The notes under the pieces: model-generated
Databases searched by the model: none
What the model was told of the DNA's origin: nothing
The model's input: only the letters and a program-made list of their open reading frames with translations
From: SAR202 cluster bacterium
GTDB lineage: Bacteria > Chloroflexota > Dehalococcoidia > Lucifugimonadales > VXLM01
DNA length: 64,000 nt
Direction: 5' to 3'
Assembly (NCBI GenBank): GCA_022448725.1
Contig: JAKUTR010000006.1
Span: 14,195 to 78,194, forward strand
Made by a program: the position numbers and the translations under genes
In this document: positions 18,989 through 30,683 of the stretch, one piece after another
Position numbering within the stretch: position 1 is the first letter of the stretch
Layout: each line of letters starts with the position of its first letter

Positions 18989-20215
18989 TTGGAATCTATT
19001 GATAAGTTAGACGGGATGACGCAAGACACACTTCCCGACAGCATGGGGCGTTTCGGACCTTTCGGAGGCAAATTTGTCCCCGAGACATTGATGCATGCCC
19101 TTGACGAGCTCGAGGAAGCATATAGAACAGCTAAAGCAGACGAATCATTTCAGGTTGAACTTGACCGACTGTTACGTTTGTACGTGGGACGTCCCACACC
19201 GGTGTACCACGCAGAGAACCTTACTCGAGAACTAGGTGGCGCACAGGTTTATCTGAAACGTGAAGACTTAGCTCATACAGGTGCTCACAAGATTAATAGT
19301 GCACTTGGACAAGGTTTGCTGACTGCTCGCATGGGGAAGAAACGCATTATTGCAGAGACCGGCGCAGGCCAGCACGGGGTCGCCACTGCTACTGTATGCG
19401 CGATGCTGAACCAGGAAGCGATTGTGTATATGGGTGAAGAGGATATAAAGCGGCAGTCACTGAATGTTTTTCGCATGAAACTATTAGGGGCTGAGGTACG
19501 TCCTGTAACCTCAGGAAGTAAAACTCTAAAAGATGCTATCAATGAGTGTATCCGTGATTGGGTTACCAACGTTGATACAACTCACTACTTGATTGGTAGC
19601 GTTGTAGGACCTCACCCGTATCCCGAGATGGTGAGAGACTTTCAATCGATCATCGGACGGGAGAGTAGAGGACAGTTGGGGTCTGGGGGTGGCAAGCATC
19701 CGGATTATGCAATTGCGTGTGTTGGAGGCGGTAGCAACGCGATGGGCCTTTTTTCTGATTTCGTGCCTGATGAGTCAGTTCGGCTAGTAGGAGTGGAAGC
19801 TGGTGGTAATGGGATTGAGACTGGTAAACATGCCTCCACCCTAGTTGCTGGTGAAGTAGGGGTACTTCATGGTACTAAGTCCTATTTGCTTCAGGATAAT
19901 GATGGTCAGATTATGGAAGCGCATAGTGTGTCTGCTGGGCTTGACTACCCTGGTGTCGGGCCTGAACATAGTTATCTCAAAGATACTGAACGAGCAGAGT
20001 ACGTAAGTATCACAGATGAAGAAGCGATCGAAGGGTTTCAATTGCTATGTCGGACGGAGGGTATTATTCCCGCTTTGGAGCCTTCGCATGCGATCGCATA
20101 TGTTTCGAAACTCGCTCCGACTTTGCCGCGGGATGCTGTAATTCTGGTTGGGTTAAGTGGTCGGGGTGACAAAGATATAAATACGGTAGCTGAAGTCCTA
20201 AACGTGACCATATAG
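18989..20215 (+). CDS. trpB: Tryptophan synthase beta chain
   Basis: [19 protein letters not shown]-lysine motif [33 protein letters not shown]. No trpA adjacent. Start uncertain: TTG at 18989 or ATG at 19016. Confidence 0.95.
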
Positions 20216-20221
20216 TAGTTC

Positions 20222-21043
20222 ATGATAACTATTGAGGACGTCACCACAGGTGCTCATTACGCGGGACTTGTAGATCTTCCAATTGTCGTCCACTCATCAT
20301 TGAGATCGTTCGGTTGTGTTGAAGGTGGTGCTGATACGGTCATTGATGGATTGCTTGAGTTGGGCTGCACGGTTGTGGTACCGACCTTCACATACGATTT
20401 TCGACTCCAGCCACCATGTGGTCAGCGACTGGCTAGGAACGGGTGGAGATATGATGATACGTTGCTAGGTATGCGGTCCGATGTGTTTAGTCCTGCGCGA
20501 AACTATATTTCGCCAGAGATGGGAGTTATTCCTTCTGCTTTGCTTCGCAGGCCTAACAGAACTCGAAGTTCTCATCCGGCCAACTCGATGGCTGCTCTGG
20601 GGCCTCTTGCTAACGAGATAATTGATACTCAGACATACTTAGATGTGTACGGTCCTTTTCAAAAAGTAGCTGAATTAGGCGGTAAGTTTGTACTAATGGG
20701 AGTAGGTTTAACTTCTCTCACAGCTATTCATCTGGCTGAGAAACTTTCCGGTAGAGAACTGTTCCGCAGATGGGCTAAGGGGACAACAGGTGAGTTGATC
20801 GAGATTGCTGTCGGTAGTTGTTCCGGGGGATTTGATAGCCTGAACGATTCAATTGAGCCCATTGAGAGTACTGTGATTGTCGGCGACAGTTGTTGGAGAG
20901 TGCTTCCCGCTGAGCTAGCACTCTGCCGTTTTACAGATGCAATTTCAAGAGAGCCCGCGATCACCCATTGCAAGAGCCCTAAATGCCAAAGATGTCCAGA
21001 TGCTATTGCTGGAGGTCCGATCTTGGCTGAAGCTAGGGGTTGA
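20222..21043 (+). CDS. AAC(3)-family (aminoglycoside N3-acetyltransferase-like) protein
   Basis: 273 aa. Family hallmarks VVHSSLRSFGCVEGGADTVIDGLLE...VVVPTFT, RSSHPANSMAALGP, VLMGVGLTSLTAIHLAE. Cys-rich C-terminus (HCKSPKCQRCP). Confidence 0.75.
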   Translation: MITIEDVTTGAHYAGLVDLPIVVHSSLRSFGCVEGGADTVIDGLLELGCTVVVPTFTYDFRLQPPCGQRLARNGWRYDDTLLGMRSDVFSPARNYISPEMGVIPSALLRRPNRTRSSHPANSMAALGPLANEIIDTQTYLDVYGPFQKVAELGGKFVLMGVGLTSLTAIHLAEKLSGRELFRRWAKGTTGELIEIAVGSCSGGFDSLNDSIEPIESTVIVGDSCWRVLPAELALCRFTDAISREPAITHCKSPKCQRCPDAIAGGPILAEARG

Positions 21044-22076
21044 TCTGTACTTTTATTGATCCACTGGTTTTGTCGAAAGCTGTCTCGAATGCTTGCTTAG
21101 CTTCAACTAGAGGATAATTGTGGGTTACCATTTGCTTTAGATCAATGCGACCACTAGATAGTAGATCTATCGCAGATTCAAAATCATGGCGTCCGGTTGC
21201 GATTGAGTAGCATGTCGAAGTGATGATTGACTGTTCTTTCATTAGGACATCAAACCAGTTAGTGGTGACTGGTTCGTGGAATACACCGAGGAGTACGATC
21301 CGGCCAGCGATCCGAGTTAACTCTATGGACTGATCCAGTGTCTCACCGGAAAATCCACCTACAGTCTCAAATGTAATGTCTGATCCCAGACCATGGGTCA
21401 GGTCTGCGAGGTTGTCTACAAGTTCAGGATCATCCGGATGCAAAGCGATATCTGCGCCGAGTCTTCTTGCCATTTGCGATTGGTGCGGGTGACGCGCTGT
21501 GGCAATGATGGTACCTGCTCCCATAGCTCGAGCAGCAGCGATAGTTGTAAGCCCAATGTTGCCCGCACCAAGTACGACAACCGTTTCACCCCCTTTTAAA
21601 CTGCTACGCCGCATTGCATGAATTGACACTGCTAAAGGCTCGACTAGTGCACCATCTTTCCATGTCAACGAAGTATCTAACGGATAGCATGCCACGGCTT
21701 TACGGACGACATATTCAGCAAATCCGCCACCAGGGTAATCATCTGATTTATCAATACAGTTACGGTACTCTCCGATGCGACAGTAATAACAAACAAGGCA
21801 GGCTCGCCCATGGCCAACTACCTCAGCAGCGACCCTTTTGCCGACCAGGCTACTATCGACATTAGCACCTATCTCCACCACTTCCCCTGCTGTTTCATGT
21901 CCAGCTGGTAAAGTCTCAGGTTCTGTAAGCTTCCGAAGCAAGTTTAGGTCAGAGCCGCAGATGCCCTCCGATCTGACCTGGATGAGTGCGTCGTCTGGTC
22001 CGACTGAAGGCTGTTGGATTTCCCTGACCTCCATTGAACTAATGCCGTCATAGAGGGCTGCTAGCATGGATGGCAT
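21033..22076 (-). CDS. Zinc-dependent medium-chain alcohol/polyol dehydrogenase (MDR family)
   Basis: GICGSDL catalytic Zn motif, GHETAGEVVEIG, structural-Zn Cys cluster CLVCYYCRIGEYRNC, Rossmann VVVLGAGNIGL. 25 nt downstream of the membrane-protein gene on the same strand. Confidence 0.85.
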   Translation of the reverse strand: MPSMLAALYDGISSMEVREIQQPSVGPDDALIQVRSEGICGSDLNLLRKLTEPETLPAGHETAGEVVEIGANVDSSLVGKRVAAEVVGHGRACLVCYYCRIGEYRNCIDKSDDYPGGGFAEYVVRKAVACYPLDTSLTWKDGALVEPLAVSIHAMRRSSLKGGETVVVLGAGNIGLTTIAAARAMGAGTIIATARHPHQSQMARRLGADIALHPDDPELVDNLADLTHGLGSDITFETVGGFSGETLDQSIELTRIAGRIVLLGVFHEPVTTNWFDVLMKEQSIITSTCYSIATGRHDFESAIDLLSSGRIDLKQMVTHNYPLVEAKQAFETAFDKTSGSIKVQINP

Positions 22077-22101: not shown

Positions 22102-23637
22102 CTATATGATTGGCTGAGCTATTATCCAGAGACTGGTAGCTGTGTAGATTAGCATGAGGATCAGCATTGGGTACTGGGTTTTGATGGCGAGATTCGGGTT
22201 ACGCATACGACGCAAGGCAACCACATGTGCAATGTAAACAGACACTACATGACCGGTTACGATGGATAGGATCGAAACCCACCAAACGAACGTTGCAGAA
22301 ATAATGGTCAAATTGAGCCGGTAATCCGATGTGCCAAAGATATCCCAGCCAAATCCAAACGGATCTGATGCAAGCGGAATGAGCCCTTGGCCTTGGATAG
22401 CAAGTAGAGATACAAAGTGCGCTAGGTTATAAGCAAGCGCGATTGGGATTAATGAAAAGACAAAGGCCTTAGCGATATCGAAGGGAATATCCCCACGACC
22501 TTCTAGTTTTCCGATGAACCAAGAAAAGATTAAATAAACAGTCCAGAATATTATCTGTACGGCTAGTAGGCCCAAAGAGTCAACTACGTCAAATGGATCC
22601 CAAGGTAGAAACTTTACGATTGTAATAATGCTTGTCTGGATGTCCATCCAAGGAGCAGTCTCCGAAACCCCATCAAAGGTTACGGTACCTAGCATTAGGA
22701 CTACGAATATTGCCATTGAGGCTGTGACATTATGCTTATTGGTCAGCCCAATGGCGTATGGGCGGAGATTAAACTCTTGTGCTGAAGGTTCCGACCGCTC
22801 GAAGCATTCATAGCAGTCCACACAGTCCTCGGATTGAATCCCGCAATTACAGCACTCTCGGCAGACTCTCTGCCCTGTTACACGAATTTCTGAAGGGGAG
22901 AACCGTGCGAAGAGGCTAAATAGAATGGAGAAGGCTTCCCCATGTCTAAGCCAGGTATGTTTACCGAACGTGATCATGCCCGCCCATGTAATAGTCGAAT
23001 AGACCATTATCAGGATGCCCAGTCTTGAAGGGAGCGCTGCATCGTTATACACATTCTCCATCCAAGCAAAGATAAACAGTAGAATTAGCCCAGGCCATAC
23101 GCCAAGGCGATCAGGGTAGCTATACAAGCCGTTGTTTCCTTGGGCAGTGCCCATTGATGTCAGCTTCTCAACCCATTCGAAAATGATTTTCCATGGATTT
23201 AGCAGGTTCCATAGATTTCCAAATAGTGCGGATATATATCCCATCCCAACCCACCAAATGATCCATACAAAGACGACAGAAAAATTTTCAACGGGCCGGT
23301 TGACCCCTAAGAAAGCTGTGGCGAGGGTAAGGCCAAAGACCGCGATTGCTAGGATGCGGATAGCGATCAGTAAGGTGGGGTGGCGAAGTACTGAACCGAG
23401 AATAGGGATGGCGAATAAATTGAGCCTTGAGTAACGTAAATCGTGACTTGTATCTCGGACGAAGAATCCCAAAATGATAAAGGAAAGTAGTACAGTCGCA
23501 GCGGCCGCTAGGATAAAGTAATTCAGGGGTATTGGAAGATCGTACCGTTGCCCGAAGCCGTGTGCTGATACCGGGACTGCAATGCATGCAGTTGCCAATG
23601 CAACAGAGATAGCAGTAATTTTTCCCTTGAGGGTCAT
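22102..23637 (-). CDS. Polytopic membrane protein of unknown family with signal peptide, N-terminal His and a 7-Cys loop
   Basis: 511 aa, about 12 hydrophobic segments. Predicted signal peptide ending VSA followed by HGFGQRYDLPIPL. Loop VCRECCNCGIQSEDCVDCYEC. The start overlaps the stop of the CopCD gene by 4 nt (ATGA). Confidence 0.7.
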   Translation of the reverse strand: MTLKGKITAISVALATACIAVPVSAHGFGQRYDLPIPLNYFILAAAATVLLSFIILGFFVRDTSHDLRYSRLNLFAIPILGSVLRHPTLLIAIRILAIAVFGLTLATAFLGVNRPVENFSVVFVWIIWWVGMGYISALFGNLWNLLNPWKIIFEWVEKLTSMGTAQGNNGLYSYPDRLGVWPGLILLFIFAWMENVYNDAALPSRLGILIMVYSTITWAGMITFGKHTWLRHGEAFSILFSLFARFSPSEIRVTGQRVCRECCNCGIQSEDCVDCYECFERSEPSAQEFNLRPYAIGLTNKHNVTASMAIFVVLMLGTVTFDGVSETAPWMDIQTSIITIVKFLPWDPFDVVDSLGLLAVQIIFWTVYLIFSWFIGKLEGRGDIPFDIAKAFVFSLIPIALAYNLAHFVSLLAIQGQGLIPLASDPFGFGWDIFGTSDYRLNLTIISATFVWWVSILSIVTGHVVSVYIAHVVALRRMRNPNLAIKTQYPMLILMLIYTATSLWIIAQPII

Positions 23638-25892
23638 TCCAGCGTCCGTATGTAGTTGATAACGTGCCAGATTTGGTCGTCCGTTAAGCTATTCCCGAGA
23701 CCAGCCATAGAAGTGCCTTTAATACCGTCATGGATGAAGCTAAACAAGATCATATCTGGATGCAGCGGTACGTGTACTACAAGATCTGCCGGAGAAGGGT
23801 TTAGCGCTTCGGAGGATGGTCCATCACCTTTGCCTGAGATACCGTGGCAAGTTTGACATTTCTCAGTATAAACGGTAGAGCCAATCGTTAGGGATGCCTG
23901 ATCAGGCGGGAAAGGATTGCGTTCAGTTTTAGAAGGTTCGGCCAACTGCGCGTTGACGATTATAACGGAGCCGATAACAGCCACCGCGACCCCAGGAGTC
24001 ATAAAGCTAAGTCCTCGGTAGGAGTACCAGCCCCCGAGAGGTATACCGAACGCAAGCAACAATACGCCAATTGCTCCTAACTCCACACCCAGTAGTAGAA
24101 TGCCAGTTCCGGGGTCCGGGGTAAGAATAGAGCTTTTCGAGGACCCAATTCCCGGAATGCTAAAGCGAAATGCGGTCCGCGCATCAAAAGCATCTGGTCG
24201 CCGGACGGCTAATTCTATTTGGTAAGCTCCCTCGATGTTGAATTTACCGTCCTCGACGATGTAGGAGCCTTTACCAACGTGTTCAGCTTTCAAGTATGGT
24301 TCTCCGAAATCCGCGTCGAGGTAAGATATTCGGATGTCGACTCCAGTAGCATTTGTGACGGCATTGCCCTGACGGTCTCTTAGAGAGGCTGCGATGCGGT
24401 TTGAACCGATAGTTCCAGGGACTATTTCTAGGCTGATCTCAGTTCCTTCAACAGTGTCTTTAAATTCGAGAGTTTTACTAGTGCTAATTGCCTCGCGCGC
24501 AGCAACTTGCCGGGCTGGTTCTAGGCTTGTGAGGTAGCCAACTGTCAGCATTACAAACACCCCGATTAGGGCCTCCACAACGACAATCCGAGTTAGCCAC
24601 TTTGTGGCTCCGGGATGTTTCCGAACAGCTGGAGTAATCCATATTAAATTAATAGCGCCCAGGGAGATTAATAATCCGGTGAGGGTAGATTTGCCCAATA
24701 GTGTGAGGCCATACGGTGTACCTAAAGCAGGGATTATTGCTACCTGGGCCCATGCGCTAAATAAGCCCGTGATCACAAGTAGTCCAACACTCACGCCGGC
24801 AATTACCGAAAAACGCGGCAAGATGGCAGTTAGGAGTGCTTGACGTGGTGCAGGGTCCATAGTGAAGTAGCTAACTGAAGCTGTAAGTGCCAGTGAGAAT
24901 AGACCGCCAATCCAAAAAGAGGCTGCCAGTACATGAATGAAATCAGTGATCGTTGCAGGCAACCAAATACTCGATATTGCAGCAGCATGACTAGTCTTGC
25001 TTATCGTTAGTAAGGCGAGTCCTGCAGCAATAGCGCCAACAACCGGTAGGTATTTGTTTCTGGTTTTTCCTCTCCGGTGCTTGATAGCGTTAGTAGTCAC
25101 AATCGTGCCTAATGCCAATAGCAGCCAGAGGCGTTGGCTCCATGCTATACCCCAGTCTGTATTACCTAAAACAAATGAGATTGGCTCTCCAATTGCTTTG
25201 AAGAAGGAAACTTCGTATGCAGCTGATGCTTGTACTATCAGTGCCAGAATTGATCCTGCTAGTGCTATACACGTTCCCCCGATCAGTAGCCAATCAATAC
25301 AAGTGTCGAATTGATTAACCGTGTCTCGAGGTGTGCTAGGACGTAGTACAGTCATGACAAATAGCAGGCTTCCCAACACCGCCAGCAGGCCCGTTAAACC
25401 CATCCAGCGAGCAAATGGTTCGATGGGCGATTGAATTAGTGATGTCTGCGGGAGGTCAATAGGCTCACTTTTGGAAACTGAATCACCCACAAAGAATACA
25501 AAACTTCCTCGAATGGTATGTCCGTCGATTGTCGAGAGAGTTTTCCAACCAACGGTATAGGTGCCTTCCGGCAGCTGAGGCATGAGTGTAACGGAGATAA
25601 TGGTCGTGTCGTTAGCATCAACTGTACTGTCATCGTTATCGACTCGTTGGCCAGTGGAATTTAGAATCTGGATATAGCTACGCGATGGCTCTAGTTGCTC
25701 CGTAAACCAGATGGTGAGGCGTTCCGGGGGATGGCTAAGAACTGCGTTAGGCACAGGCTCCGAACGGACAAAATTTGAATGGCTAAAGGCAGTATCAGGT
25801 GTTAGCAGCAGCGTCGCCACAAAGGATGCGCCTATCGTGGCGACGTATACTTTCTTGAGAAGATTCATTTTGTCTTTCGGAGGTGGTCCCAA
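23634..25892 (-). CDS. CopC-CopD fusion protein with extra Ig-like (YtkA/FixH-like) domain and C-terminal class I cytochrome c
   Basis: After a signal peptide (..TAFS/HSNF), the CopC domain aligns by eye with PcoC/CopC (HS..SEP...LPEGTYTVGWKTLSTIDGHTIRGSFVFFV). A multi-TM CopD-like core follows, then a soluble beta-rich segment, two more TM segments and CQTCHG ... TSMAG (heme c with Met ligand). Start either TTG at 25892 or ATG at 25868. Confidence 0.85.
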   Translation of the reverse strand: MGPPPKDKMNLLKKVYVATIGASFVATLLLTPDTAFSHSNFVRSEPVPNAVLSHPPERLTIWFTEQLEPSRSYIQILNSTGQRVDNDDSTVDANDTTIISVTLMPQLPEGTYTVGWKTLSTIDGHTIRGSFVFFVGDSVSKSEPIDLPQTSLIQSPIEPFARWMGLTGLLAVLGSLLFVMTVLRPSTPRDTVNQFDTCIDWLLIGGTCIALAGSILALIVQASAAYEVSFFKAIGEPISFVLGNTDWGIAWSQRLWLLLALGTIVTTNAIKHRRGKTRNKYLPVVGAIAAGLALLTISKTSHAAAISSIWLPATITDFIHVLAASFWIGGLFSLALTASVSYFTMDPAPRQALLTAILPRFSVIAGVSVGLLVITGLFSAWAQVAIIPALGTPYGLTLLGKSTLTGLLISLGAINLIWITPAVRKHPGATKWLTRIVVVEALIGVFVMLTVGYLTSLEPARQVAAREAISTSKTLEFKDTVEGTEISLEIVPGTIGSNRIAASLRDRQGNAVTNATGVDIRISYLDADFGEPYLKAEHVGKGSYIVEDGKFNIEGAYQIELAVRRPDAFDARTAFRFSIPGIGSSKSSILTPDPGTGILLLGVELGAIGVLLLAFGIPLGGWYSYRGLSFMTPGVAVAVIGSVIIVNAQLAEPSKTERNPFPPDQASLTIGSTVYTEKCQTCHGISGKGDGPSSEALNPSPADLVVHVPLHPDMILFSFIHDGIKGTSMAGLGNSLTDDQIWHVINYIRTLE

Positions 25893-25912
25893 GGATTCTG
25901 CGAAATTTGAGA

Positions 25913-26974
25913 TTATGATCTTCTAGGAGCTAAGAACCAACTGGCAGCGCCGACAGCTACACCAATTATCCCTAGAATTACGCCAACGATTCCAATAGTT
26001 ATAGCTGTCGTGACACTCGTCGAGGCATCCGATGCTAGGTTTTCAGTGCCTCGGATACCAGCTTCAAGTTCACGTACACTTTTTACAGTATGCGGGAATT
26101 GCAAAACTGAGTGGGCCTGAACGTCATCAAAATCACCGCCTCCTCCCTTGGACATAAACGTCTCACTGATTTTGTGGCTTTCAATGGTTCCAAACAACCG
26201 GAGTTTGTACACACCTTGTGCCGTTGGGATCAATGCAGCACTGTAGTGACCCGGCTCTTGATGTACGGGGACGAGGTCCATGGTTCTTGAGATGTTTGTT
26301 TCGACATGAGTAATCTCGACCCTCAAAGTTGTCTCTAACCCCTCTACGGCTATTGTCGTAGAATCAGAATGTTCTTCGGGAGCCTTTCCCGATGTTATAG
26401 AAGATACCTTCTCGGTCTTATTGAGCCACATGATCTTGGTGCCAGGCTTAACATGCACTTCGCCATTGCGGTACCTATCCGGGTATATCTCGATCATAAC
26501 CATTTCGGAAAGGCCAGCGTTCTCTGAGACCTTAATTGAACCTACCATTTTGTGATCCAAATGGTTGTGGAACGGGATGGTCAGGCCTAGATAGTTATCT
26601 GAAGCGATAAATTCGAAGGTGCCCCCAGCGGGCAACGCAGAGTTAAATAAAGCCCCATGTGCTTCTACGCTATCCGATGTGGCCGCGTGGCCGTGTTCTT
26701 CGTGGGTTGAGTCATGTTGCTCTTGATGTCCGTGGTGCTCAGCATCATCCTTTTTTGTTACGCGTACAGAGATGCCATTCGGAATCCCTTCATATGCGGG
26801 CTCTTCCATGAATCCAACGGTTAAATTGTATTTACCAACTTCGCGTCCCTCGTGCGCAGTCGTGTCCTTGGTCAATGCCAATAGTAGTAGTAGGGTGATG
26901 ATGACAGGGGTACATTGTTTTAGCATTTGGGTTTCCTCAAAGTCTTGATATTTATTTTTTTCGTGCAGTCCCAT
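25913..26974 (-). CDS. Exported, C-terminally anchored His-rich multidomain protein (cupredoxin-like / Ig-like repeats)
   Basis: The likely true start is the ATG at 26926 (GAGGAA 6 nt upstream), giving signal peptide MLKQCTPVIITLLLLLALTKDTTA followed by HEGREVG. His-rich linker DDAEHHGHQEQHDSTHEEHGHAA. Segment FHNHLDHKMVGSIKV resembles a cupredoxin C-terminal loop lacking Cys. C-terminal TM anchor. Confidence 0.7.
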   Translation of the reverse strand: MGLHEKNKYQDFEETQMLKQCTPVIITLLLLLALTKDTTAHEGREVGKYNLTVGFMEEPAYEGIPNGISVRVTKKDDAEHHGHQEQHDSTHEEHGHAATSDSVEAHGALFNSALPAGGTFEFIASDNYLGLTIPFHNHLDHKMVGSIKVSENAGLSEMVMIEIYPDRYRNGEVHVKPGTKIMWLNKTEKVSSITSGKAPEEHSDSTTIAVEGLETTLRVEITHVETNISRTMDLVPVHQEPGHYSAALIPTAQGVYKLRLFGTIESHKISETFMSKGGGGDFDDVQAHSVLQFPHTVKSVRELEAGIRGTENLASDASTSVTTAITIGIVGVILGIIGVAVGAASWFLAPRRS

Positions 26975-27491
26975 GGCGACCTAAGGATGCACGGATGGCG
27001 AGTCCTAAAACCACCAGAAAAGCTGTTAAAGTCATCAGTGTAACGATTCCGGCGATTGGGCTAGCATTCTTGACAGTAACTTCGAAATCTGCCGAATACT
27101 GTTTTTCGATGCTTTGAACTGTGGTTGTAAAGGTCCAGATTCCCTCCTGGTCAACAACCGTGTTCACATCGTAGAATGTTGGGTCTTGAAGGTTTGTTGT
27201 CGCATGTATCGGGCCGATTTTCTCAGATCCCGATTCTGGTGGCGGCATACCACTCACAGTGACCGTTGCTCCAGTAATCAAGGTGTCGCTTGCGATTTCA
27301 GTTAAGCTAATCGTGATGTGTAGGTTACCCACTGAAGGGGTTCCGGGTATTGTTCCGAACGCAATTTCATAAGGACCAATGACCTTTGATTCAAAGGACA
27401 CAACCCGGCCATTGCCTAGCACCGTGCTAGGTCCGAACGCAATAACGGTTATAACAAATACGGTAACAAGCCGGAACAAGATACCTGTCAT
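26952..27491 (-). CDS. Exported beta-rich protein with C-terminal TM anchor (YtkA/FixH-like by appearance)
   Basis: 179 aa. N-terminal signal/anchor, soluble beta-strand-like middle (LHITISLTE...TVTVSG...WTFTTTV), C-terminal hydrophobic segment plus basic tail (GRHGTARKK). Confidence 0.6.
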   Translation of the reverse strand: MTGILFRLVTVFVITVIAFGPSTVLGNGRVVSFESKVIGPYEIAFGTIPGTPSVGNLHITISLTEIASDTLITGATVTVSGMPPPESGSEKIGPIHATTNLQDPTFYDVNTVVDQEGIWTFTTTVQSIEKQYSADFEVTVKNASPIAGIVTLMTLTAFLVVLGLAIRASLGRHGTARKK

Positions 27492-27545
27492 CTAAATATC
27501 ACCACTCTCACCTGAATCACTGTGGTAAGGCCGATTAAACGGAGA

Positions 27546-27926
27546 TTAAGCAGTGTTTTGGGGTGGTTGTGTTGGCCTGGGAAGGAATACTTCGTAAATC
27601 CTAGGGTTTATTGGAGAAGGCATAATAAACCCGACCGAGGGTTCGAAGTGAACCAAGTGCCTCGGATCATCCTTGTCTAAGGTGATTAACAAGCTACCTG
27701 CCGCAAGGCCATCGTAGGAGTAAATGGAGTCATTTGTAGGGGGAAGCGCTTCTGGTAGATGACTGTGTGGGCTGTTGTGATAATGCGAGTGCGGAGAGTT
27801 GGTAACTATATGGGTGTGATGAGGATGTCTTTCAGCGAAATGATGGTCTACTAATGGACCCACTGTAGGGAATAGTAGGGCACCGTATAGTGCCCAGGAG
27901 ATTGCTTGAAACAGGCGGTACCTCAT
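27546..27926 (-). CDS. Small membrane-anchored His-rich protein
   Basis: 126 aa. N-terminal hydrophobic segment, then DHHFAERHPHHTHIVTNSPHSHYHNSPHSH (13 His in 30 residues, tandem NSPHSH). Lies 36 nt downstream of the 596-aa gene. Confidence 0.6.
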   Translation of the reverse strand: MRYRLFQAISWALYGALLFPTVGPLVDHHFAERHPHHTHIVTNSPHSHYHNSPHSHLPEALPPTNDSIYSYDGLAAGSLLITLDKDDPRHLVHFEPSVGFIMPSPINPRIYEVFLPRPTQPPQNTA

Positions 27927-27962
27927 TCAGGTATGTTACCTTTCTCAAGCCTTCTGCATCGA

Positions 27963-29753
27963 CTATGCAGCGTAGAGTCCCAATCCAAGGTTTACGATCA
28001 TCTCATGAATAGGGAATCCCTCGGGCAGTTCAAATTGAATATTGGGCTCTACCGCCTGACGTCCCAGGCGTCCTGCAATTGCTGAAGCGAACTCTGACCT
28101 ATTGCCGATATGGGTTCCAGTTGTGACCACAGGTACTCTAGAGTTGAGTGTGTCCTGGATATCTGTAGTTCGGTTGGCTACCGCCACGGCCCGATCGGTG
28201 ATCTGAGATGGTCTTAGGGAGCCACTCTCCCAGTGGATCGACTGGTATGCAATTGGAACCCAATCATGGATCACTATAGCGTCACATCCGTCGGCAGCTA
28301 TCCAGATTATGAGTGCTTCTTGCATGTTGACTGCCCTGGCGATAGCAAAAGGACGTAATTCAAGTGCGTCGAGTTTGTACCCCGAACGATACACAACATC
28401 TGTGATTGATGAAACAGAACGGTTCGTTGCTGATACTATAAGCCAGCGTCCGATCTGTGACCGTCCGGGTAGGCGCGTCCAGTTCATTGTTACAAGCTCC
28501 GCTGGGATACCAAGAGTACGGGCGACTTCTCGGGAGAATATCGCCTCGGGATCAAGTTCTCGGGCGTTTGGCAATTCAACGTTGCTGAGAGCTGCCTGGT
28601 AGCCAGGCACAGCTGCTACTAGACGTGCGTGTGGCGCAGCGGACTCAGTAAGAACTTGGTCAAGGTTACGGGCCACTTTTTGGGTATCCTGTACAAGGCC
28701 AGCCAGGTATGATTCCAGTCCAAACTCGGTTATCGAATACGACATTACTTCGACTCCGCGCATAGACAACACCTTCAACTCGTTGTGTTCTAGAGTTAAG
28801 GTCGTTATCTCCTCGGGGGGAGAAGTGAAGATCCCTTCGATCAGTTTCCGCTCCCTGCCAGTCGAAGGAGCAGTTCTGTTTCGGAAGAAAACGGACAAGT
28901 TTCTTATTGAATCTGCCAAAGCATAAACCAACCCCCGTAACCTCAATGATAGATTTGATAGGTACTGTGTGGAGGTGCTACTCGCTTTGTTTGATAAGGT
29001 GGGTACAGTCGGATCAGTTTCCTGTGGTTGCCCGAATTCATGCGAAACTGGATCGGCTAAGTCAGGGTTTTCAACACCCCTGGTACTGTCACGTCTTTTT
29101 GCGAGTTGATTAAGCGCTCGAAGAAGTGCAGATTCTTCACTGGTTGCCTCCTCCGATTCTGATTTTTGGGATGAGCTTGTTTGAGTCTCAGCCGTTTTGT
29201 CTGGACTTGTCTTATCGCCAGATATGAGATGTTGTAATAACTCTAAGGCATCTTGCTGCTCAGGAACTCTTTCCTGATAACCTCGAGTGGGATCGTGGGA
29301 ACTGGAAGGATTTTCATTTGAATCAGAATCCAACTCCCCATCTGGACCCGGTAGATTTGGTGTGCCGAGAGATTCAGGATTTGGAACAGTGGTTGCTATG
29401 TGATCGTGTATATGATTTTGTGCTTTGGGTTCATCTGTAAGCTCTGTGGTGCATACCAAACACTGGAAGCTGTCACCCCTCTTCTCGTACAAGCCTAGGT
29501 CATAAAGTGTACGTGGATCGGATTGGTATCTGTTATGGAATTGATGAACCATCCATTCACTGATACCAAGGGCGTCTGCTATTTGATCAACCGACCATCC
29601 TTCAGTAAACCCCCAAAAAATAAACCGCTTCTCGTCGTCGTCTACCCAGCGGCCCTTTTCATGAGCGTCTCTAGTCGGTCCACCTCTTGCGAATCTTTCA
29701 TGTAGGGTTGGCTCTGACAAATGATCACCACAACAACCGAGATCTCCTAGCAC
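27963..29753 (-). CDS. Multidomain protein: HTH + C2H2-like motif + acidic/Ser-rich linker + PilM/actin-like domain
   Basis: 596 aa. HTH-like FTEGWSVDQIADALGISEWMVHQFHNRY. FQCLVCTTELTDEPKAQNHIHDH fits C-X2-C-X12-H-X3-H. About 150 aa of low complexity. The C-terminal approximately 300 aa shows a PilM-like pattern (LTLEHNELKVLSM..., AVPGYQAALSNVELP, LELRPFAIARAV). Confidence 0.7.
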   Translation of the reverse strand: MLGDLGCCGDHLSEPTLHERFARGGPTRDAHEKGRWVDDDEKRFIFWGFTEGWSVDQIADALGISEWMVHQFHNRYQSDPRTLYDLGLYEKRGDSFQCLVCTTELTDEPKAQNHIHDHIATTVPNPESLGTPNLPGPDGELDSDSNENPSSSHDPTRGYQERVPEQQDALELLQHLISGDKTSPDKTAETQTSSSQKSESEEATSEESALLRALNQLAKRRDSTRGVENPDLADPVSHEFGQPQETDPTVPTLSNKASSTSTQYLSNLSLRLRGLVYALADSIRNLSVFFRNRTAPSTGRERKLIEGIFTSPPEEITTLTLEHNELKVLSMRGVEVMSYSITEFGLESYLAGLVQDTQKVARNLDQVLTESAAPHARLVAAVPGYQAALSNVELPNARELDPEAIFSREVARTLGIPAELVTMNWTRLPGRSQIGRWLIVSATNRSVSSITDVVYRSGYKLDALELRPFAIARAVNMQEALIIWIAADGCDAIVIHDWVPIAYQSIHWESGSLRPSQITDRAVAVANRTTDIQDTLNSRVPVVTTGTHIGNRSEFASAIAGRLGRQAVEPNIQFELPEGFPIHEMIVNLGLGLYAA

Positions 29754-29914
29754 TATAGCTTAGGCTACTCATTACAAATAATAGTAGGCCTTTAGGCTTG
29801 GAGTGTGAAGGGATTTCCCGTATCTATTTGAGCGAGCGACTAAATTGGTCATATGGGCATCCTGAACATTTGCTAGCCTACAAGGTATATTATGTCTCCG
29901 TTCAGCATCGGAAT

Positions 29915-30000
29915 GCCCAGGTGGCGGAATGGTAGACGCGGCGGACTTAAAATCCGCTTCTCGCGAGAGAGTGGGGGTTCGAGTCCCTTCCTGGGCACCA
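29915..30000 (+). tRNA. tRNA-Leu (anticodon TAA), class II with long variable arm, encoded CCA
   Basis: Acceptor stem GCCCAGG/CCTGGGC. Anticodon stem GCGGA/TCCGC with loop CTTAAAA. Long variable arm CTCTC-GCG-GAGAG. T-loop GTTCGAGTC. 3' ACCA end at 30000. Confidence 0.9.
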
Positions 30001-30017
30001 GGTGTTTACGGAAAAAT

Positions 30018-30683
30018 ATGGAGGGTGTAATGAGTTCGAAAAATCTAATCGGTTGGGCATTAATCATTGGGCCGCTCTCTGCGTTCCTCTTTGGAGGTCT
30101 TTTGACTGGGATATTGATAGGGCCTGGAGAAACCGCTGCGGAAGCCGTCAGTGAAATGCAGGCAAAGATAGGACTGAAGTCTGTATTTACTATCTTAGGT
30201 AGCTTAGGATTTGTATTCGCTTTTATTGGGACTGTTTTACTGAGTAACTCGATGCGTGGCGATGGTAAACCAGGTAGTTTGTTAGCTAGTATAAGTACTG
30301 TTATTTTCATCGCACTTACAACGCTTGCGATGGCAGCGACAATGTCGGACTGGGCAGCACTGGGCTCTCTACAAAATGATAATTTGGATGCTGCAGCACA
30401 AATTAGTAATGCCGTTACAATAACGCTTGTAGGCAATGCGTTGTGGGCAGGCTTGTTCTTCTTCTGGGGTATTGGCTTCCTTACCTTAGGAACAGCTTTG
30501 GTTATGCAACGGAAATTGAACGTCATTGTAGACTGGATTTTTGTTGTGTTTGGAGCACTGTTTGTTATTCTGCTGCTTATGCCTTGGGACCTTGCACAAA
30601 ATGTAGGCTTCTTGATTTTCGGCGTAATGGTCCTAAACACTATCGCCGCTGGTGTATTCCAGCTCAGAGCAGATGAGAGCTAG
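30018..30683 (+). CDS. Integral membrane protein, unknown function (about 6 TM segments)
   Basis: The ORF-track entry 29892..30683 starts inside the tRNA. The first plausible starts after the tRNA are the ATGs at 30018 and 30030 (MSSKNLIGWALIIGPLSAFLF...). Hydrophobic throughout. Confidence 0.65.
   Translation: MEGVMSSKNLIGWALIIGPLSAFLFGGLLTGILIGPGETAAEAVSEMQAKIGLKSVFTILGSLGFVFAFIGTVLLSNSMRGDGKPGSLLASISTVIFIALTTLAMAATMSDWAALGSLQNDNLDAAAQISNAVTITLVGNALWAGLFFFWGIGFLTLGTALVMQRKLNVIVDWIFVVFGALFVILLLMPWDLAQNVGFLIFGVMVLNTIAAGVFQLRADES

What the first reader, a model, noticed from the sequence alone, without database searches (positions are those of the whole stretch)
22102..29753. Compact minus-strand six-gene cluster: atypical extracytoplasmic copper-handling module built from N-terminal-His, His-rich and Cys-rich proteins
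Six genes lie on one strand with very short spacers: 36, 54, about 25 and 20 nt, then a 4-nt ATGA overlap. A Zn-ADH gene follows 25 nt further on.

Only the CopC, CopD and cytochrome c modules are recognisable by eye. The other products look like lineage-specific exported or membrane proteins.

Three products have a predicted signal peptide whose likely cleavage site exposes His as residue 1:
- VSA/HGFGQRYDLP in the 511-aa membrane protein
- AFS/HSNFVRSEP in the CopC module
- TTA/HEGREVG in the 337/353-aa protein

An amino-terminal His is the defining ligand of histidine-brace Cu sites in CopC, YcnI, PmoD and LPMOs.

The cluster also carries:
- two dense His tracts (DDAEHHGHQEQHDSTHEEHGH and HHFAERHPHHTHIVTNSPHSHYHNSPHSH)
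- a 7-Cys loop
- a heme c domain fused to the putative Cu importer

Together these suggest an integrated Cu capture, redox and import (or detoxification) system. Its composition is not the textbook copABCD, cus or ycnKJI arrangement.
Basis: partly seen in the sequence, partly recalled or inferred. Interest (0 to 1): 0.75.

Follow-up and report, generated by a model that had tools for sequence, protein, structure and literature searches.

The report
Copper-handling operon with unknown membrane protein
Five of the six genes form a conserved envelope operon in marine Chloroflexota that most likely captures and moves copper, and its most conserved member belongs to a very large membrane-protein family with no known function, Pfam model or matching solved structure.

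Summary

g2, g3, g4, g5 and g6 recur in the same order and strand in Dehalococcoidia/SAR202 genomes. The 596-aa head gene g1 was next to none of 80 related loci. The Zn-ADH follows only in the closest relatives.

- **g5** is a YcnJ-like CopC-CopD protein with a probable YtkA-like domain and a C-terminal class I cytochrome c. This fusion is common in Dehalococcoidia.
- **g3 and g4** are distantly related, C-terminally anchored YtkA-like beta-sandwich proteins.
- **g2** is a small protein with eight near-invariant His.
- **g6** (511 aa, about 10 predicted TM helices) has no Pfam, NCBIfam or PDB match by sequence or fold. Its family has over 6,000 50%-identity clusters across Bacteria and haloarchaea.

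The His after the signal peptide is invariant in g4, g5 and g6 homologues. In g6 it joins universal H407, H463, H471, M495, E194 and D322.

g6 pairs with either CopCD-cytochrome c (31 loci) or a three-His cupredoxin-like lipoprotein (36 loci), never both.

Copper trafficking is the best reading. Direction, metal and g6's mechanism are inferred.

The parts
27546..27926 (-). g2: 126-aa small His-rich protein. It has an N-terminal hydrophobic segment, then GPLxDHHFAE and HxH repeats, and a C-terminal PP.
   Evidence: No Pfam or NCBIfam hit. Found upstream of g3 in 35 of the 80 related loci. H28, H29 and H37 are 100% conserved. H39, H46, H48 and H56 are 97% and H54 is 91%. A divergent His-rich variant (cluster c24) occupies the same position in four more loci.
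26952..27491 (-). g3: 179-aa exported YtkA-like beta-sandwich protein with a C-terminal TM anchor. The predicted mature N-terminus is NGRV, not His.
   Evidence: Pfam YtkA scores 17.7 bits, below the 25.9 cut-off. 12 of 36 family members hit YtkA, best E 1.1e-6. The family profile hits PDB 9ll2_A 'Copper resistance protein' at E 4.9e-4. Its cluster has 59 members beside g6 across the 80 loci, two in a few loci. Hydrophobic segments at residues 1-27 and 142-171.
25913..26926 (-). g4: 337-aa exported protein (353 aa if the upstream ATG at 26974 is used). His25 follows the signal peptide. The core is a YtkA-like beta-sandwich split by an insert holding the His tract and a Cys-less cupredoxin-like segment (IPFHNHLDHKMVGSIKV). 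It ends in a TM anchor.
   Evidence: Alignment A3 has H25, E42 and P43 invariant and shows the insert is variable: cupredoxin-like, GHAHIYVDG-type, or absent. The AF2 model has pLDDT 76, is all-beta, has a TM helix at 306-332 and a disordered His tract at 64-90. hhalign of the g4 N-terminus against g3 gives probability 79%, E 1.6e-5. Foldseek gives only non-significant hits to FetP/P19/FtrA and CopC. Strong (window-type) g4 matches occur only in loci that also have g5.
23634..25868 (-). g5: 744-aa fusion of signal peptide, CopC, CopD, a YtkA-like domain, 2 TM helices and a class I cytochrome c.
   Evidence: Pfam CopC, CopD, Cytochrom_C and Cytochrome_CBB3 all exceed their cut-offs. PDB sequence matches are YcnJ CopC 9c14_A (E 1e-11) and cytochrome c552 (E 7.6e-17). 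The gene caller on a near-identical scaffold gives 744 aa. All 120 listed homologue clusters carry the same fusion.
25488..25781 (-). CopC domain of g5 (aa 30-127). His30 is the predicted first mature residue and DGH116 the second ligand motif.
   Evidence: Residues 30-125 align to residues 1-95 of 9c14_A and 5icu_A. H30, G116 and H117 (744-aa numbering) are invariant and D115 is at least 90% conserved in A5.
24513..25412 (-). CopD membrane domain of g5 (about aa 153-452).
   Evidence: Pfam CopD E 3.6e-15. NCBIfam copper_CopD scores 115.7 bits, below the 195 equivalog cut-off. Invariant His, Asp and His lie in the membrane domain (H293, D308, H311 in A5 numbering).
24063..24443 (-). Probable YtkA-like domain of g5 (about aa 476-602), in the position it has in Bacillus YcnJ.
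   Evidence: hhalign of the g3 family against the g5 family gives E 6.4e-4 but probability only 28%. A few g5 homologues carry a precomputed PF13115 hit.
23640..23927 (-). C-terminal class I cytochrome c domain of g5 (CQTCH at aa 671-675, conserved Met).
22102..23637 (-). g6: 511-aa membrane protein of an uncharacterised family. It has a signal peptide, His26 in AHGFGxRYDLPxPL, and about 10 TM helices. It is the most conserved component of the module.
   Evidence: No Pfam, NCBIfam or PDB sequence hit. The AF2 model has pLDDT 80 and pTM 0.81. Foldseek against the PDB finds nothing (best E 0.22, TM about 0.13). The profile finds 6,012 50%-identity clusters at E <= 1e-3. H26, E194, D322, H407, H463, H471 and M495 are 95-100% conserved in 151 diverse representatives. 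It is not related to CopD (hhalign probability 0.7%).
23560..23562 (-). Codon of g6 His26, the predicted first residue after cleavage at VSA/HG.
   Evidence: Invariant in A1 and A2 and 99% conserved in diverse representatives. The AF2 model gives pLDDT below 50 for residues 19-32, which would fit a flexible segment.
22804..22863 (-). Cys-rich loop of g6 (aa 259-278, two CxxCxxC-like motifs). It is a lineage-specific insertion predicted on the cytoplasmic side.
   Evidence: The positions are gapped in about 85 of 151 representatives, and many relatives match the profile in two stretches broken at positions 255-285. The cytoplasmic location is inferred from the helix order, the positive-inside rule, and a C-terminal SodC fusion with only a 25-residue linker.
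27963..29753 (-). g1: 596-aa cytoplasmic protein with a weak N-terminal HTH and a weak PilM/actin-like region. It is adjacent but is NOT a conserved part of the module.
   Evidence: Only sub-threshold hits: HTH_23 at 19 bits, TIGR01175 pilM at 27.7 bits against a 133 cut-off. No PDB sequence hit. Not detected in any of 80 related loci. Present only in the near-identical scaffold L095.
21033..22076 (-). Zn-dependent alcohol dehydrogenase family gene downstream of g6. It is not a conserved part of the module.
   Evidence: Pfam ADH_N and ADH_zinc_N. It follows g6 only in the closest relatives, L001-L007 and L095.

Best explanation
g2 to g6 form one envelope operon for copper acquisition and trafficking. 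It supplies copper to cuproenzymes, probably respiratory oxidases, in an aerobic marine Dehalococcoidia/SAR202 bacterium.

Proposed steps, all inferred unless marked otherwise:
1. Cu(II) is captured outside the cytoplasmic membrane. The capture sites are N-terminal-His sites on the CopC domain of g5, on the anchored beta-sandwich protein g4, and on the flexible N-terminus of g6. The His-rich g2 and the YtkA-like g3 may add capacity. Conservation of these His residues is shown; metal binding is not.
2. The cytochrome c fused to g5 provides or removes an electron, for example reducing Cu(II) to Cu(I). In sister operons a three-His cupredoxin-like lipoprotein sits in place of g5, or a free small cytochrome c follows g6.
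3. The metal passes through or onto two membrane proteins. One is the CopD domain of g5, as proposed for Bacillus YcnJ. The other is g6. In g6 a line of universally conserved residues could run from the outer face (H26, E194, D322, D425), through mid-membrane (H407, H463, M495), to the inner face (H471). This would form a metal path or a buried metal site. The depth of each residue is inferred from the predicted helix order.
4. The YtkA-like modules, like Bacillus CtaK, hand copper to membrane or periplasmic cuproenzymes.

g1 and the ADH gene are neighbours, not components.
For: Operon structure. Spacers are short and g5/g6 share an ATGA overlap.

Conservation across 80 related loci:
- g3 cluster: 59 members next to g6
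- g2: 35 loci
- g5: 31 loci
- cupredoxin-like lipoprotein: 36 loci
- g5 and the cupredoxin-like gene together: 0 loci

g5. It is a bona fide CopC-CopD-cytochrome c protein, and His30 aligns with residue 1 of the YcnJ CopC crystal construct. YcnJ (CopC+CopD+YtkA) is an experimentally supported copper importer for the Qox and Cta oxidases, and CtaK is a YtkA-domain protein implicated in CuA assembly (PMC13344008). YcnI exchanges Cu(II) with YcnJ (PMC12362106).

g3 and g4. Both are YtkA-like.

Conserved residues. The post-signal-peptide His is invariant in g4, g5 and g6. H407, H463, H471, M495, E194 and D322 are universal in g6.

Independent copper context around g6 homologues in other phyla:
- SCO1/SenC in Chloroflexia
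- PCu(A)C in Sulfitobacter
- sigC, a cupredoxin-like gene and the g6 homologue next to pmoCAB-type copper monooxygenase genes on two mycobacterial plasmids. SigC prevents copper starvation in M. tuberculosis (PMC7924339).
- fusions of g6 to Cu/Zn-SOD and to a YtkA-like domain
- a small cytochrome c directly downstream
- the cupredoxin-like gene directly upstream in 10 of 17 further diverse loci

Precedent. N-terminal-His domains tethered to metal permeases bind Cu(II) by a mono-His brace (PMC12537917).
Against: - No metal binding, transport or expression data exist for any member of the g2, g4 or g6 families.
- g6 has no detectable similarity to any transporter, by sequence or fold. It could be an enzyme or a redox protein rather than a permease.
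- No copper-responsive regulator (CsoR, CueR, CopY, YcnK) and no P1B ATPase were seen near the module.
- Several proteobacterial g6 homologues sit in catabolic clusters with no copper genes: nicotinate degradation and a tannase/feruloyl esterase.
- One family member carries the automatic UniRef name 'Fenitrothion hydrolase'.
- Actinobacterial homologues lack a signal peptide, so the conserved His is not always residue 1.
- g4's Foldseek hits also include FetP/P19/FtrA, which serve iron uptake.
- The YtkA assignments rest on sub-threshold or modest scores.
- I could not inspect the coordinates of the AF2 model, so clustering of the conserved g6 residues in space is unverified.
Confidence: 0.55

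Rival explanations
1. g6 is a membrane-bound metalloenzyme or redox protein, not a permease. Its active site would use the N-terminal His and the three invariant TM His residues. The cupredoxin-like protein or the cytochrome c would be its electron-transfer partner. CopCD and the YtkA-like proteins would only load its cofactor.
For: - The recurrent partners are classical electron-carrier folds: a cupredoxin-like lipoprotein, a fused cytochrome c and a free cytochrome c.
- g6 has no similarity to any transporter.
- The invariant cluster of His, Met, Glu and Asp in the membrane resembles enzyme metal sites as much as transport sites.
- Some homologues sit in catabolic clusters.
- UniRef names one member 'Fenitrothion hydrolase'.
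- From general knowledge, an N-terminal-His copper site is catalytic in LPMOs and is present in PmoB.
Against: - The cupredoxin-like partner lacks the Cys of type-1 copper sites and keeps three His instead. That fits a chaperone or type-2 site as well.
- The cupredoxin-like protein is interchangeable with a CopC-CopD importer. This is easier to explain if both deliver the same metal to g6 or accept it from g6.
- Fusion to SodC or YtkA, and Sco or PCuAC neighbours, point to metal hand-over.
- No substrate-related genes are conserved around the Chloroflexota module.
- The FedA name could not be verified here.
Confidence: 0.22
2. The module is an iron uptake system, Fe(II) or Fe(III), of the FtrABCD / EfeUOB / FetMP logic. 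Copper-containing periplasmic proteins (P19-like g4, cupredoxin-like partner) and a cytochrome would oxidise Fe(II). g6 would be the permease in place of an FTR1-type protein.
For: - Foldseek hits of g4, although non-significant, repeatedly list FetP, P19 and FtrA.
- The alternative partner matches Pfam Cupredoxin_1. From general knowledge, FtrB and the N-terminal domain of EfeO also have cupredoxin-like folds.
- One haloarchaeal homologue lies next to a DyP-type peroxidase, which is EfeB-like.
- g6 carries a ferredoxin-like CxxCxxC pair, reminiscent of the polyferredoxin FtrD.
Against: - No FTR1/EfeU, EfeO-M75 or P19 Pfam hit exists in the cluster.
- All Foldseek E-values are at or above 0.016.
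- The Cys loop is absent from most of the family.
- The fused and adjacent partners are copper-specific families: CopC, CopD, YtkA, SCO1, PCuAC, SodC and CuMMO.
- The DyP neighbour was seen once.
Confidence: 0.08
3. The module detoxifies copper, as classical periplasmic CopC/CopD 'resistance' proteins were first described, rather than acquiring it. The His-rich proteins would buffer excess periplasmic Cu, and g6 would export or sequester it.
For: - Databases name g5 homologues 'copper resistance protein CopC'.
- The dense His tracts in g2 and g4 resemble metal buffers.
- A g6-SodC fusion with a periplasmic C-terminus would suit outward delivery.
Against: - No CopA multicopper oxidase, CopB, Cus system, P1B ATPase or Cu-sensing repressor accompanies the module.
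- Experimental work on YcnJ and other CopCD proteins supports import under Cu limitation (PMC13344008, PMC11923076).
- sigC-linked homologues suggest a Cu-starvation context (PMC7924339).
- Open-ocean SAR202 habitats are, from general knowledge, copper-poor.
Confidence: 0.1

Closest known systems
Bacillus subtilis ycnKJI system plus CtaK (YcnJ = CopC-CopD-YtkA importer; YcnI = DUF1775 N-terminal-His Cu(II) protein with a C-terminal anchor; CtaK = YtkA-domain lipoprotein for CuA assembly)
   Same: - g5 has the CopC-CopD-(YtkA-like) order of YcnJ, and its His30 aligns with residue 1 of the YcnJ CopC structure.
- g4 copies the YcnI architecture: signal peptide, N-terminal His, beta-sandwich, C-terminal TM anchor.
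- g3 is a stand-alone anchored YtkA-like protein, like CtaK.
   Different: - No YcnK repressor is present.
- g4 gives no DUF1775 hit and is instead a YtkA-like paralogue with an inserted cupredoxin-like segment.
- g3 is anchored by a C-terminal helix, not a lipobox.
- g5 carries an extra cytochrome c.
- The system contains two components with no Bacillus counterpart: the His-rich g2 and the 10-TM g6.
- g6, not CopCD, is the constant element.
Proteobacterial CopC/CopD (copABCD; E. coli yobA-yebZ-yebY 'AZY')
   Same: A periplasmic CopC with a His1/Asp/His Cu(II) site is coupled to a CopD membrane protein.
   Different: Here the two are fused. They are extended by YtkA-like and cytochrome c domains. 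There is no CopA multicopper oxidase, CopB or YebY-like partner.
'Anglerase' Ang-1/Ang-2 N-terminal-His domains fused to HupE/UreJ permeases (PMC12537917)
   Same: The concept matches. A conserved His is exposed by signal-peptide cleavage at the N-terminus of a polytopic membrane protein, where it could chelate Cu(II) next to a permease. In g6 His26 is invariant, and the low-confidence AF2 segment would fit a flexible tether.
   Different: - g6 has no HupE/UreJ Pfam hit and a different membrane domain.
- The extracytoplasmic part is only a 12-residue motif (HGFGxRYDLPxP), not an Ig-like domain.
- Actinobacterial homologues have no signal peptide.
FtrABCD / FetMP / EfeUOB iron uptake systems (P19-type Cu protein, cupredoxin, permease, ferredoxin or peroxidase)
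   Same: The system logic is similar: anchored or periplasmic beta-sandwich Cu-type proteins, a cupredoxin-like protein, a polytopic membrane protein and a redox module. Weak fold resemblance appears.
   Different: There is no FTR1, P19, EfeO or DyP family member in the module. All detectable family memberships are copper-trafficking families.
FedA 'fenitrothion hydrolase' of Burkholderia sp. NF100 (name propagated in UniRef and in B. cenocepacia BCAM2542, PMC3417382)
   Same: A g6-family member in Candidatus Curtissbacteria carries this UniRef name. The family has Burkholderiales members in Variovorax and Ralstonia.
   Different: Homology to the experimentally studied FedA could not be checked, because neither the sequence nor the paper is held. 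PLSDB records call the homologues 'hypothetical protein'. A hydrolase role would not explain the conserved copper-protein partners.

Membership tests
CopC (PF04234) | Profile match above the curated cut-off | tested here: met
   g5 residues 38-135 (752-aa numbering) score 67.9 bits against a cut-off of 23.3.
CopC (PF04234) | Mature N-terminal His plus a DxH Cu(II) site | tested here: met
   His30 follows TAFS and aligns with residue 1 of 9c14_A and 5icu_A. H30, G116 and H117 (744-aa numbering) are invariant and D115 is at least 90% conserved in 18 homologues. Actual cleavage and Cu binding are not testable here.
CopD (PF05425 / NF033808) | Profile match above the cut-off | tested here: met
   Pfam scores 56.7 bits against 32.1. 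The NCBIfam equivalog scores 115.7 bits against 195. So this is a CopD-domain protein but not the equivalog.
YcnJ-type architecture (CopC-CopD-YtkA) | A YtkA-like domain after CopD | tested here: inconclusive
   The window protein has no Pfam hit there. hhalign of the g3 family against g5 residues 475-601 gives E 6.4e-4 and probability 28%. A few homologues carry precomputed PF13115.
Class I cytochrome c (PF00034 / PF13442) | CxxCH heme motif, distal Met, profile match | tested here: met
   CQTCH lies at residues 671-675. An invariant Met is present. The Pfam score is 41 bits against 21.3. Cytochrome c552 structures match at E 7.6e-17.
YtkA-like / CtaK (PF13115), for g3 | Profile match above the cut-off | tested here: inconclusive
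   The window g3 scores 17.7 bits against 25.9. 12 of 36 family members hit at E < 0.01, best 1.1e-6. The family profile hits PDB 9ll2_A 'Copper resistance protein' at E 4.9e-4.
YtkA-like / CtaK (PF13115), for g3 | Lipoprotein anchoring (lipobox Cys), as in CtaK | tested here: not met
   There is no Cys near the signal peptide end (VLG/NGRV). The anchor is a C-terminal hydrophobic helix at 142-171.
YcnI / DUF1775, for g4 | Profile match to DUF1775 | tested here: not met
   No Pfam hit at E <= 0.1. No PDB sequence hit with the family profile. Only the architecture is shared: N-terminal His, beta-sandwich, C-terminal anchor.
P19 / FetP / FtrA, for g4 | Significant fold or sequence match | tested here: inconclusive
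   Foldseek lists them repeatedly, but E-values are 0.04-0.2 and TM-scores normalised to the query are at most 0.26. There is no sequence hit.
Histidine brace (N-terminal His amine plus imidazole, with a second His) | His is residue 1 of the mature protein | tested here: inconclusive
   The His is invariant after A-x-A-type sites in g4, g5 and g6. Cleavage itself was not predicted by a dedicated tool or measured. Actinobacterial g6 homologues keep the His at about residue 8 with no signal peptide.
Histidine brace | A second coordinating His or other ligand in the right geometry, and Cu binding | not testable with these tools
   This needs a metal-bound structure, EPR or ICP-MS.
Cupredoxin (type-1 Cu), for the g4 insert and the alternative partner | The His-Cys-His-Met ligand set | tested here: not met
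   The g4 insert reads FHNHLDHKMVG with no Cys. The partner family conserves HLHGYD...H, three His and no Cys. The fold-level Cupredoxin_1 match is above the cut-off only for L009, at 36.4 bits against 27.
Textbook copABCD / cus / ycnKJI operons | Presence of CopA multicopper oxidase and CopB, or CusCBA, or YcnK and DUF1775 | tested here: not met
   None was detected among the cluster genes or the flanking genes scanned at 17.1-18.3 kb and 20.2-42.8 kb of the window.
HupE/UreJ 'anglerase' permeases, for g6 | A HupE/UreJ membrane domain | tested here: not met
   g6 has no Pfam hit at E <= 0.1.
CopD or FTR1 permease, for g6 | Detectable homology | tested here: not met
   hhalign of g6 against the CopCD family gives probability 0.7%. 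There are no Pfam or NCBIfam hits. Foldseek against the PDB gives a best E of 0.22.
FedA fenitrothion hydrolase, for g6 | Sequence homology to the characterised Burkholderia sp. NF100 enzyme | not testable with these tools
   Only a propagated UniRef name on one family member exists. Neither the FedA sequence nor the paper is held.

The most novel reading that the evidence does not exclude
g6 founds a previously unrecognised, very widespread class of polytopic membrane metalloproteins. The family has over 6,000 50%-identity clusters in Chloroflexota, Actinomycetota, Pseudomonadota, Deinococcota, a candidate-phylum (Curtissbacteria) member and haloarchaea. Its membrane domain matches no fold in the PDB.

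In this reading, a conserved N-terminal His on a flexible tether and a buried His3/Met/Glu/Asp site act as a new type of copper permease or copper-insertion machine. It would be served interchangeably by a CopC-CopD-cytochrome c protein or by a three-His cupredoxin-like lipoprotein. It would also be the missing copper supply route for enzymes such as actinobacterial copper membrane monooxygenases.
Probability: 0.35. Interest if true: 0.8.

Novelty: new variant of a known kind. Interest (0 to 1): 0.62.

Why it matters
How bacteria bring copper to their envelope cuproenzymes is poorly understood. CopCD/YcnJ, CcoA and a few chaperones are the only handles.

This locus shows a conserved partnership between a YcnJ-like importer, CtaK/YcnI-like anchored chaperones and a large unannotated membrane-protein family. 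That family carries the sequence hallmarks of a metal site. It also sits next to Sco, PCuAC, Cu/Zn-SOD and copper monooxygenase genes in other phyla.

If g6 is a copper permease or insertase, three things follow:
- Thousands of 'hypothetical proteins' would gain an annotation.
- It would explain copper supply in abundant marine SAR202 bacteria.
- It would offer a candidate copper-delivery factor for hydrocarbon-oxidising CuMMOs in cultivable Mycolicibacterium and for cultivable Variovorax, where genetics are possible.

The clean either/or replacement of CopCD-cytochrome c by a cupredoxin-like lipoprotein gives a ready-made natural experiment for function.

Tried and rejected
- **g6 as a distant CopD.** Rejected by hhalign, probability 0.7%.
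- **g6 as a known fold.** Foldseek of a confident model (pTM 0.81) against the PDB found nothing, best E 0.22. Sequence and profile searches of the PDB found nothing except a non-significant eL40 zinc-ribbon-like hit on the Cys loop, E 1.8.
- **g4 as YcnI/DUF1775 or P19.** No Pfam or PDB sequence hit. Foldseek was not significant.
- **g1 as regulator or head of the operon.** It is absent from all 80 related loci. It has only sub-threshold HTH and PilM hits and no PDB hit.
- **Promoter and terminator scan of 20.8-30.2 kb.** Counts were at or below shuffle expectation, so it was uninformative.
- **Rv0102 of M. tuberculosis as a g6 relative.** The paper describes it as a CopD plus cytochrome-oxidase-assembly-like protein, a different family.
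- **The FedA / fenitrothion hydrolase lead.** Three literature searches and one DOI look-up gave no description of the protein. Plasmid records give only 'hypothetical protein'.
- **Extra domains fused to long g6 homologues, compared with g2-g5 by phmmer.** No match. Pfam found only TPR, YtkA and Sod_Cu.
- **A cupredoxin-like HxHGYD gene in the window.** None exists.
- **Model coordinates.** They could not be accessed, so spatial clustering of the conserved g6 residues was not checked.
- **SignalP and DeepTMHMM.** They were not available. Cleavage sites and topology rest on the -3/-1 rule, conservation, hydropathy, AF2 helices and one fusion protein.

Full report
**1. The observation**

The region 22102-29753 carries six minus-strand ORFs exactly as described.

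| Gene | Coordinates | Length |
|---|---|---|
| g1 | 27963-29753 | 596 aa, GTG start |
| g2 | 27546-27926 | 126 aa |
| g3 | 26952-27491 | 179 aa |
| g4 | 25913-26974 or 25913-26926 | 353 or 337 aa |
| g5 | 23634-25892 (TTG) or 23634-25868 (ATG) | 752 or 744 aa |
| g6 | 22102-23637 | 511 aa |

Spacers are 36, 54, 25 and 20 nt. The fourth becomes 44 nt with the ATG start of g5. g5 and g6 overlap by ATGA. A Zn-ADH gene (21033-22076) starts 25 nt after g6.

Both His tracts, the seven-Cys loop (C259, 262, 263, 265, 272, 275, 278 of g6) and CQTCH in g5 are present. Homologue lengths and an independent gene call on a near-identical metagenome scaffold favour the 337-aa g4 and the 744-aa g5. Base composition is uniform across the window, so nothing marks the cluster as foreign.

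**2. What the proteins are**

g5 passes the Pfam cut-offs for CopC, CopD and cytochrome c. Its residues 30-125 align with residues 1-95 of the crystallised CopC domain of Bacillus YcnJ (9c14_A, E 1e-11) and of CopC 5icu_A. The His after TAFS therefore corresponds to mature residue 1. The C-terminus matches cytochrome c552 structures at E 7.6e-17.

Between CopD and the cytochrome lies a domain that the g3 family profile recognises (hhalign E 6.4e-4, probability 28%). This fits the CopC-CopD-YtkA order of YcnJ. The whole fusion is common: all 120 listed homologue clusters carry CopC, CopD and cytochrome c. Source databases call them 'copper resistance protein CopC', 'c-type cytochrome' or 'copper transport protein'.

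g3 is YtkA-like. The window copy is below threshold (17.7 bits against 25.9). However, 12 of 36 family members hit YtkA (best E 1.1e-6), and the family profile finds PDB 9ll2_A 'Copper resistance protein' at E 4.9e-4. It has a signal peptide and a C-terminal anchor helix.

g4 has no Pfam hit. Its N-terminal part is homologous to that of g3 (hhalign probability 79%). Its AF2 model is an all-beta protein with a C-terminal TM helix.

The g4 alignment shows a conserved core (AHEGREVGxYxxxVGFxxEPAYEG ... PG.Y.A.LIPTAPG) interrupted by a variable insert. In the window the insert holds the His tract, which is disordered in the model, and a Cys-less cupredoxin-like segment. Other homologues have a GHAHIYVDG-type domain there, or nothing.

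g2 has no family assignment. It has eight near-invariant His in 36 sequences.

g1 shows only sub-threshold HTH and PilM-like hits.

**3. g6 is the unusual component**

g6 has no Pfam, NCBIfam or PDB sequence match. A word-seeded search nevertheless returned over 2,000 homologues. An exhaustive profile search found 6,012 50%-identity clusters at E <= 1e-3 and 1,374 at E <= 1e-30.

Members occur in these groups:
- Dehalococcoidia/SAR202, Chloroflexia and Trueperaceae
- Gamma-, Beta- and Alphaproteobacteria
- Mycobacteria, Rhodococcus, Pseudonocardia and Nonomuraea
- Candidatus Curtissbacteria and many haloarchaea

Source annotation is almost always 'hypothetical protein'.

An AF2 model is confident (pLDDT 80, pTM 0.81) and shows about ten TM helices. 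Foldseek against the PDB finds no match (best E 0.22, TM about 0.13). hhalign excludes a relation to CopD.

Across 151 diverse representatives these residues are 95-100% conserved: A25-H26 at the signal-peptide junction, E194, D322, H407, H463, H471 and M495, plus many Trp and Pro. The Cys-rich loop is gapped in about 85 of the 151, so it is a lineage-specific insertion.

I infer an N-out/C-out topology with the Cys loop in the cytoplasm. This rests on three things:
- the helix order in the model
- the positive-inside rule
- a natural fusion of g6 to a Cu/Zn-SOD domain through a 25-residue linker

I could not access the model coordinates.

**4. Is the cluster real?**

A scan of one genome per species returned over 569 loci encoding g6 relatives, and the best 80 were analysed. 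The window's proteins were searched against all ORFs of those loci and the neighbours were clustered. The order g2-g3-g4-g5-g6 on one strand recurs in about 20 loci.

| Component | Occurrence beside g6 in the 80 loci |
|---|---|
| g3 | 59 cluster members (two in a few loci) |
| g2 | 35 loci, plus a divergent His-rich variant in four more |
| g5 | 31 loci |
| g1 | 0 loci |
| ADH | only L001-L007 |

g1 is seen only in a near-identical scaffold whose proteins are 92-99% identical. Flanking genes are housekeeping (trpB, purF, purM, purN).

The most informative pattern comes from an HMM of a small lipoprotein with the motif HLHGYDiE...F.A.aTG.F..t.H. This protein is cupredoxin-like (Pfam Cupredoxin_1, 36 bits in one member).

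| Gene found with g6 | Loci |
|---|---|
| Cupredoxin-like lipoprotein directly upstream, no g5 | 36 |
| g5, no cupredoxin-like gene | 31 |
| Both | 0 |
| Neither | 13 |

The same cupredoxin-like gene, usually overlapping g6 by 4 nt, precedes g6 homologues in 10 of 17 further diverse loci. These include Variovorax, four mycobacterial plasmids, Rhodococcus and Pseudonocardia.

So g6 plus one periplasmic partner is the ancient core. The CopC-CopD-cytochrome c protein is one of two interchangeable partners.

**5. Copper context elsewhere**

- Chloroflexia: SCO1/SenC lies directly downstream.
- Sulfitobacter plasmid: a divergent PCu(A)C gene.
- Mycobacterium dioxanotrophicus and M. chubuense plasmids: sigC, the cupredoxin-like gene and the g6 homologue lie beside pmoCAB-type copper monooxygenase genes. 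SigC prevents copper starvation in M. tuberculosis (PMC7924339).
- Fusions: g6 to Cu/Zn-SOD and g6 to a YtkA-like domain.
- A small cytochrome c lies directly downstream in one metagenomic locus.
- Rex regulators lie upstream in a few Dehalococcoidia loci.

Against a universal copper role, alphaproteobacterial homologues sit in nicotinate-catabolism clusters or after a tannase/feruloyl esterase gene. One haloarchaeal homologue neighbours a DyP peroxidase. One member bears the propagated UniRef name 'Fenitrothion hydrolase', which I could not verify.

**6. Mechanism**

Shown:
- the conserved operon
- the CopC/CopD/cytochrome c identity of g5
- the YtkA-like nature of g3 and g4, at modest scores
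- the invariant post-signal-peptide His in three proteins
- the invariant intramembrane His/Met/acidic set in g6
- the either/or partner pattern

Inferred:
- Cu(II) capture by N-terminal-His sites
- a redox step by the cytochrome c or its substitutes
- passage through CopD and/or g6
- hand-over by YtkA-like modules to cuproenzymes

The inference follows the experimentally supported YcnJ/YcnI/CtaK pathway of Bacillus (PMC13344008, PMC12362106). It also follows the 'anglerase' precedent of N-terminal-His domains tethered to permeases (PMC12537917).

I put 0.55 on this copper acquisition and trafficking reading. The rivals are:
- g6 as a membrane metalloenzyme or redox protein with electron-carrier partners: 0.22
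- copper detoxification: 0.10
- an Ftr/Efe-like iron system: 0.08

**7. Comparison and novelty**

The module works like an extended ycnJ/ycnI/ctaK system, but it is not a member of any textbook operon. It has no CopA, CopB, Cus or YcnK, and g4 fails the DUF1775 test.

The CopCD-cytochrome c fusion is already catalogued in databases, so it is not new as a sequence architecture.

What is new:
- the conserved association
- the partner swap
- recognition that the constant element is a huge unannotated membrane family with a fold not represented in the PDB

I classify the finding as a new variant of a known kind. There is a substantial chance (about 0.35) that g6 represents a new class of copper permease or insertase.

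**8. Verdict**

It is a five-gene module, not six. Two of the cited 'copper features' are lineage-specific inserts. Copper is strongly suggested by context but is not demonstrated. Interest is 0.62.

Noticed in passing
L082:3496-11569 (M. dioxanotrophicus plasmid NZ_CP020812.1) and L085:1-7350 (M. chubuense NBB4 pMYCCH.01): g6 homologues, each preceded by the small cupredoxin-like lipoprotein gene and by sigC, lie beside pmoCAB-type copper membrane monooxygenase genes. In one case a zf-HC2 anti-sigma-like gene follows. This is a possible dedicated copper-supply module for actinobacterial hydrocarbon monooxygenases.
   Followed up: partly
L083:44-7380 (Sulfitobacter plasmid), L088:1-12425 (Neorhizobium plasmid), L093:5259-8329 (Sagittula plasmid): Distant g6 homologues (about 26-28% identity) in Alphaproteobacteria sit inside nicotinate-catabolism clusters (6-hydroxynicotinate reductase, nicotinate dehydrogenase, Liv-type ABC transporter). 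One instead overlaps a tannase/feruloyl esterase gene by 4 nt. They lack the cupredoxin-like partner. This subfamily may have a different role.
   Followed up: partly
Protein P0307 (90% cluster of P0241), UniRef100_A0A1F5G396: A Candidatus Curtissbacteria member of the g6 family is named 'Fenitrothion hydrolase' in UniRef. B. cenocepacia BCAM2542 carries the same FedA-derived name (PMC3417382). Homology to the characterised Burkholderia sp. NF100 enzyme could not be verified.
   Followed up: partly
Proteins P0178 and P0182 (metagenomic g6 homologues): These are natural fusions. P0178 is g6 plus a C-terminal Cu/Zn superoxide dismutase domain (PF00080, E 6.6e-34, about 25-residue linker). P0182 is g6 plus a YtkA-like domain. 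P0158 and P0193 carry C-terminal TPR repeats.
   Followed up: partly
window 26400-26650 (g4 residues about 95-180): The g4 insert contains IPFHNHLDHKMVGSIKV. This resembles the C-terminal ligand loop of plastocyanin-type cupredoxins, with His where the Cys would be. It is followed, rather than preceded, by an N-terminal-type cupredoxin strand (VHVKPGTKIMWLN). It may be a circularly permuted, Cys-less cupredoxin.
   Followed up: no
window 27963-29753: g1 is a 596-aa cytoplasmic protein with a weak sigma-70 region-4/HTH-like segment (residues 46-79), an acidic low-complexity linker and a weak PilM/actin-ATPase-like C-terminal half. It was detected beside none of the 80 related loci, only in one near-identical scaffold (L095), and its function is unknown.
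   Followed up: partly
L020:7192-7974, plus the same family upstream in L031, L032, L035 and L064: A Rex-type redox-sensing repressor gene (Put_DNA-bind_N plus CoA_binding) lies just upstream of the g2/g3 genes in several Dehalococcoidia loci. This hints at control by respiratory (NADH/NAD+) status.
   Followed up: partly
L014:6960-7340 and equivalents (cluster c7) between g4 and g5 in about 8 loci: An extra small gene with a weak AhpC/Redoxin (thioredoxin-fold, possibly Sco-like) match sits between g4 and g5 in some relatives. It is missing from the window.
   Followed up: no
window 18989-20215 and 20222-21043: trpB (tryptophan synthase beta) flanks the module here and in many related loci, which indicates conserved synteny. 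Next to it is an aminoglycoside 3-N-acetyltransferase-family gene.
   Followed up: partly
window 29873-30683: Two long ORFs overlap on opposite strands: 29892-30683 (+, 263 aa, membrane-like) and 29873-30640 (-, 255 aa). On the near-identical scaffold the gene caller reports a 217-aa gene in the orientation corresponding to the window's + strand. It has no Pfam hit.
   Followed up: no
window 31402-33306: A 634-aa protein has no hit in this Pfam copy. Its counterpart on the near-identical scaffold is labelled PF26099 (DUF8034).
   Followed up: no
window 1-64000: GC skew is positive in every 2-kb bin up to about 58 kb and turns negative after that. This coincides with a run of minus-strand genes at 57-63 kb.
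   Followed up: no
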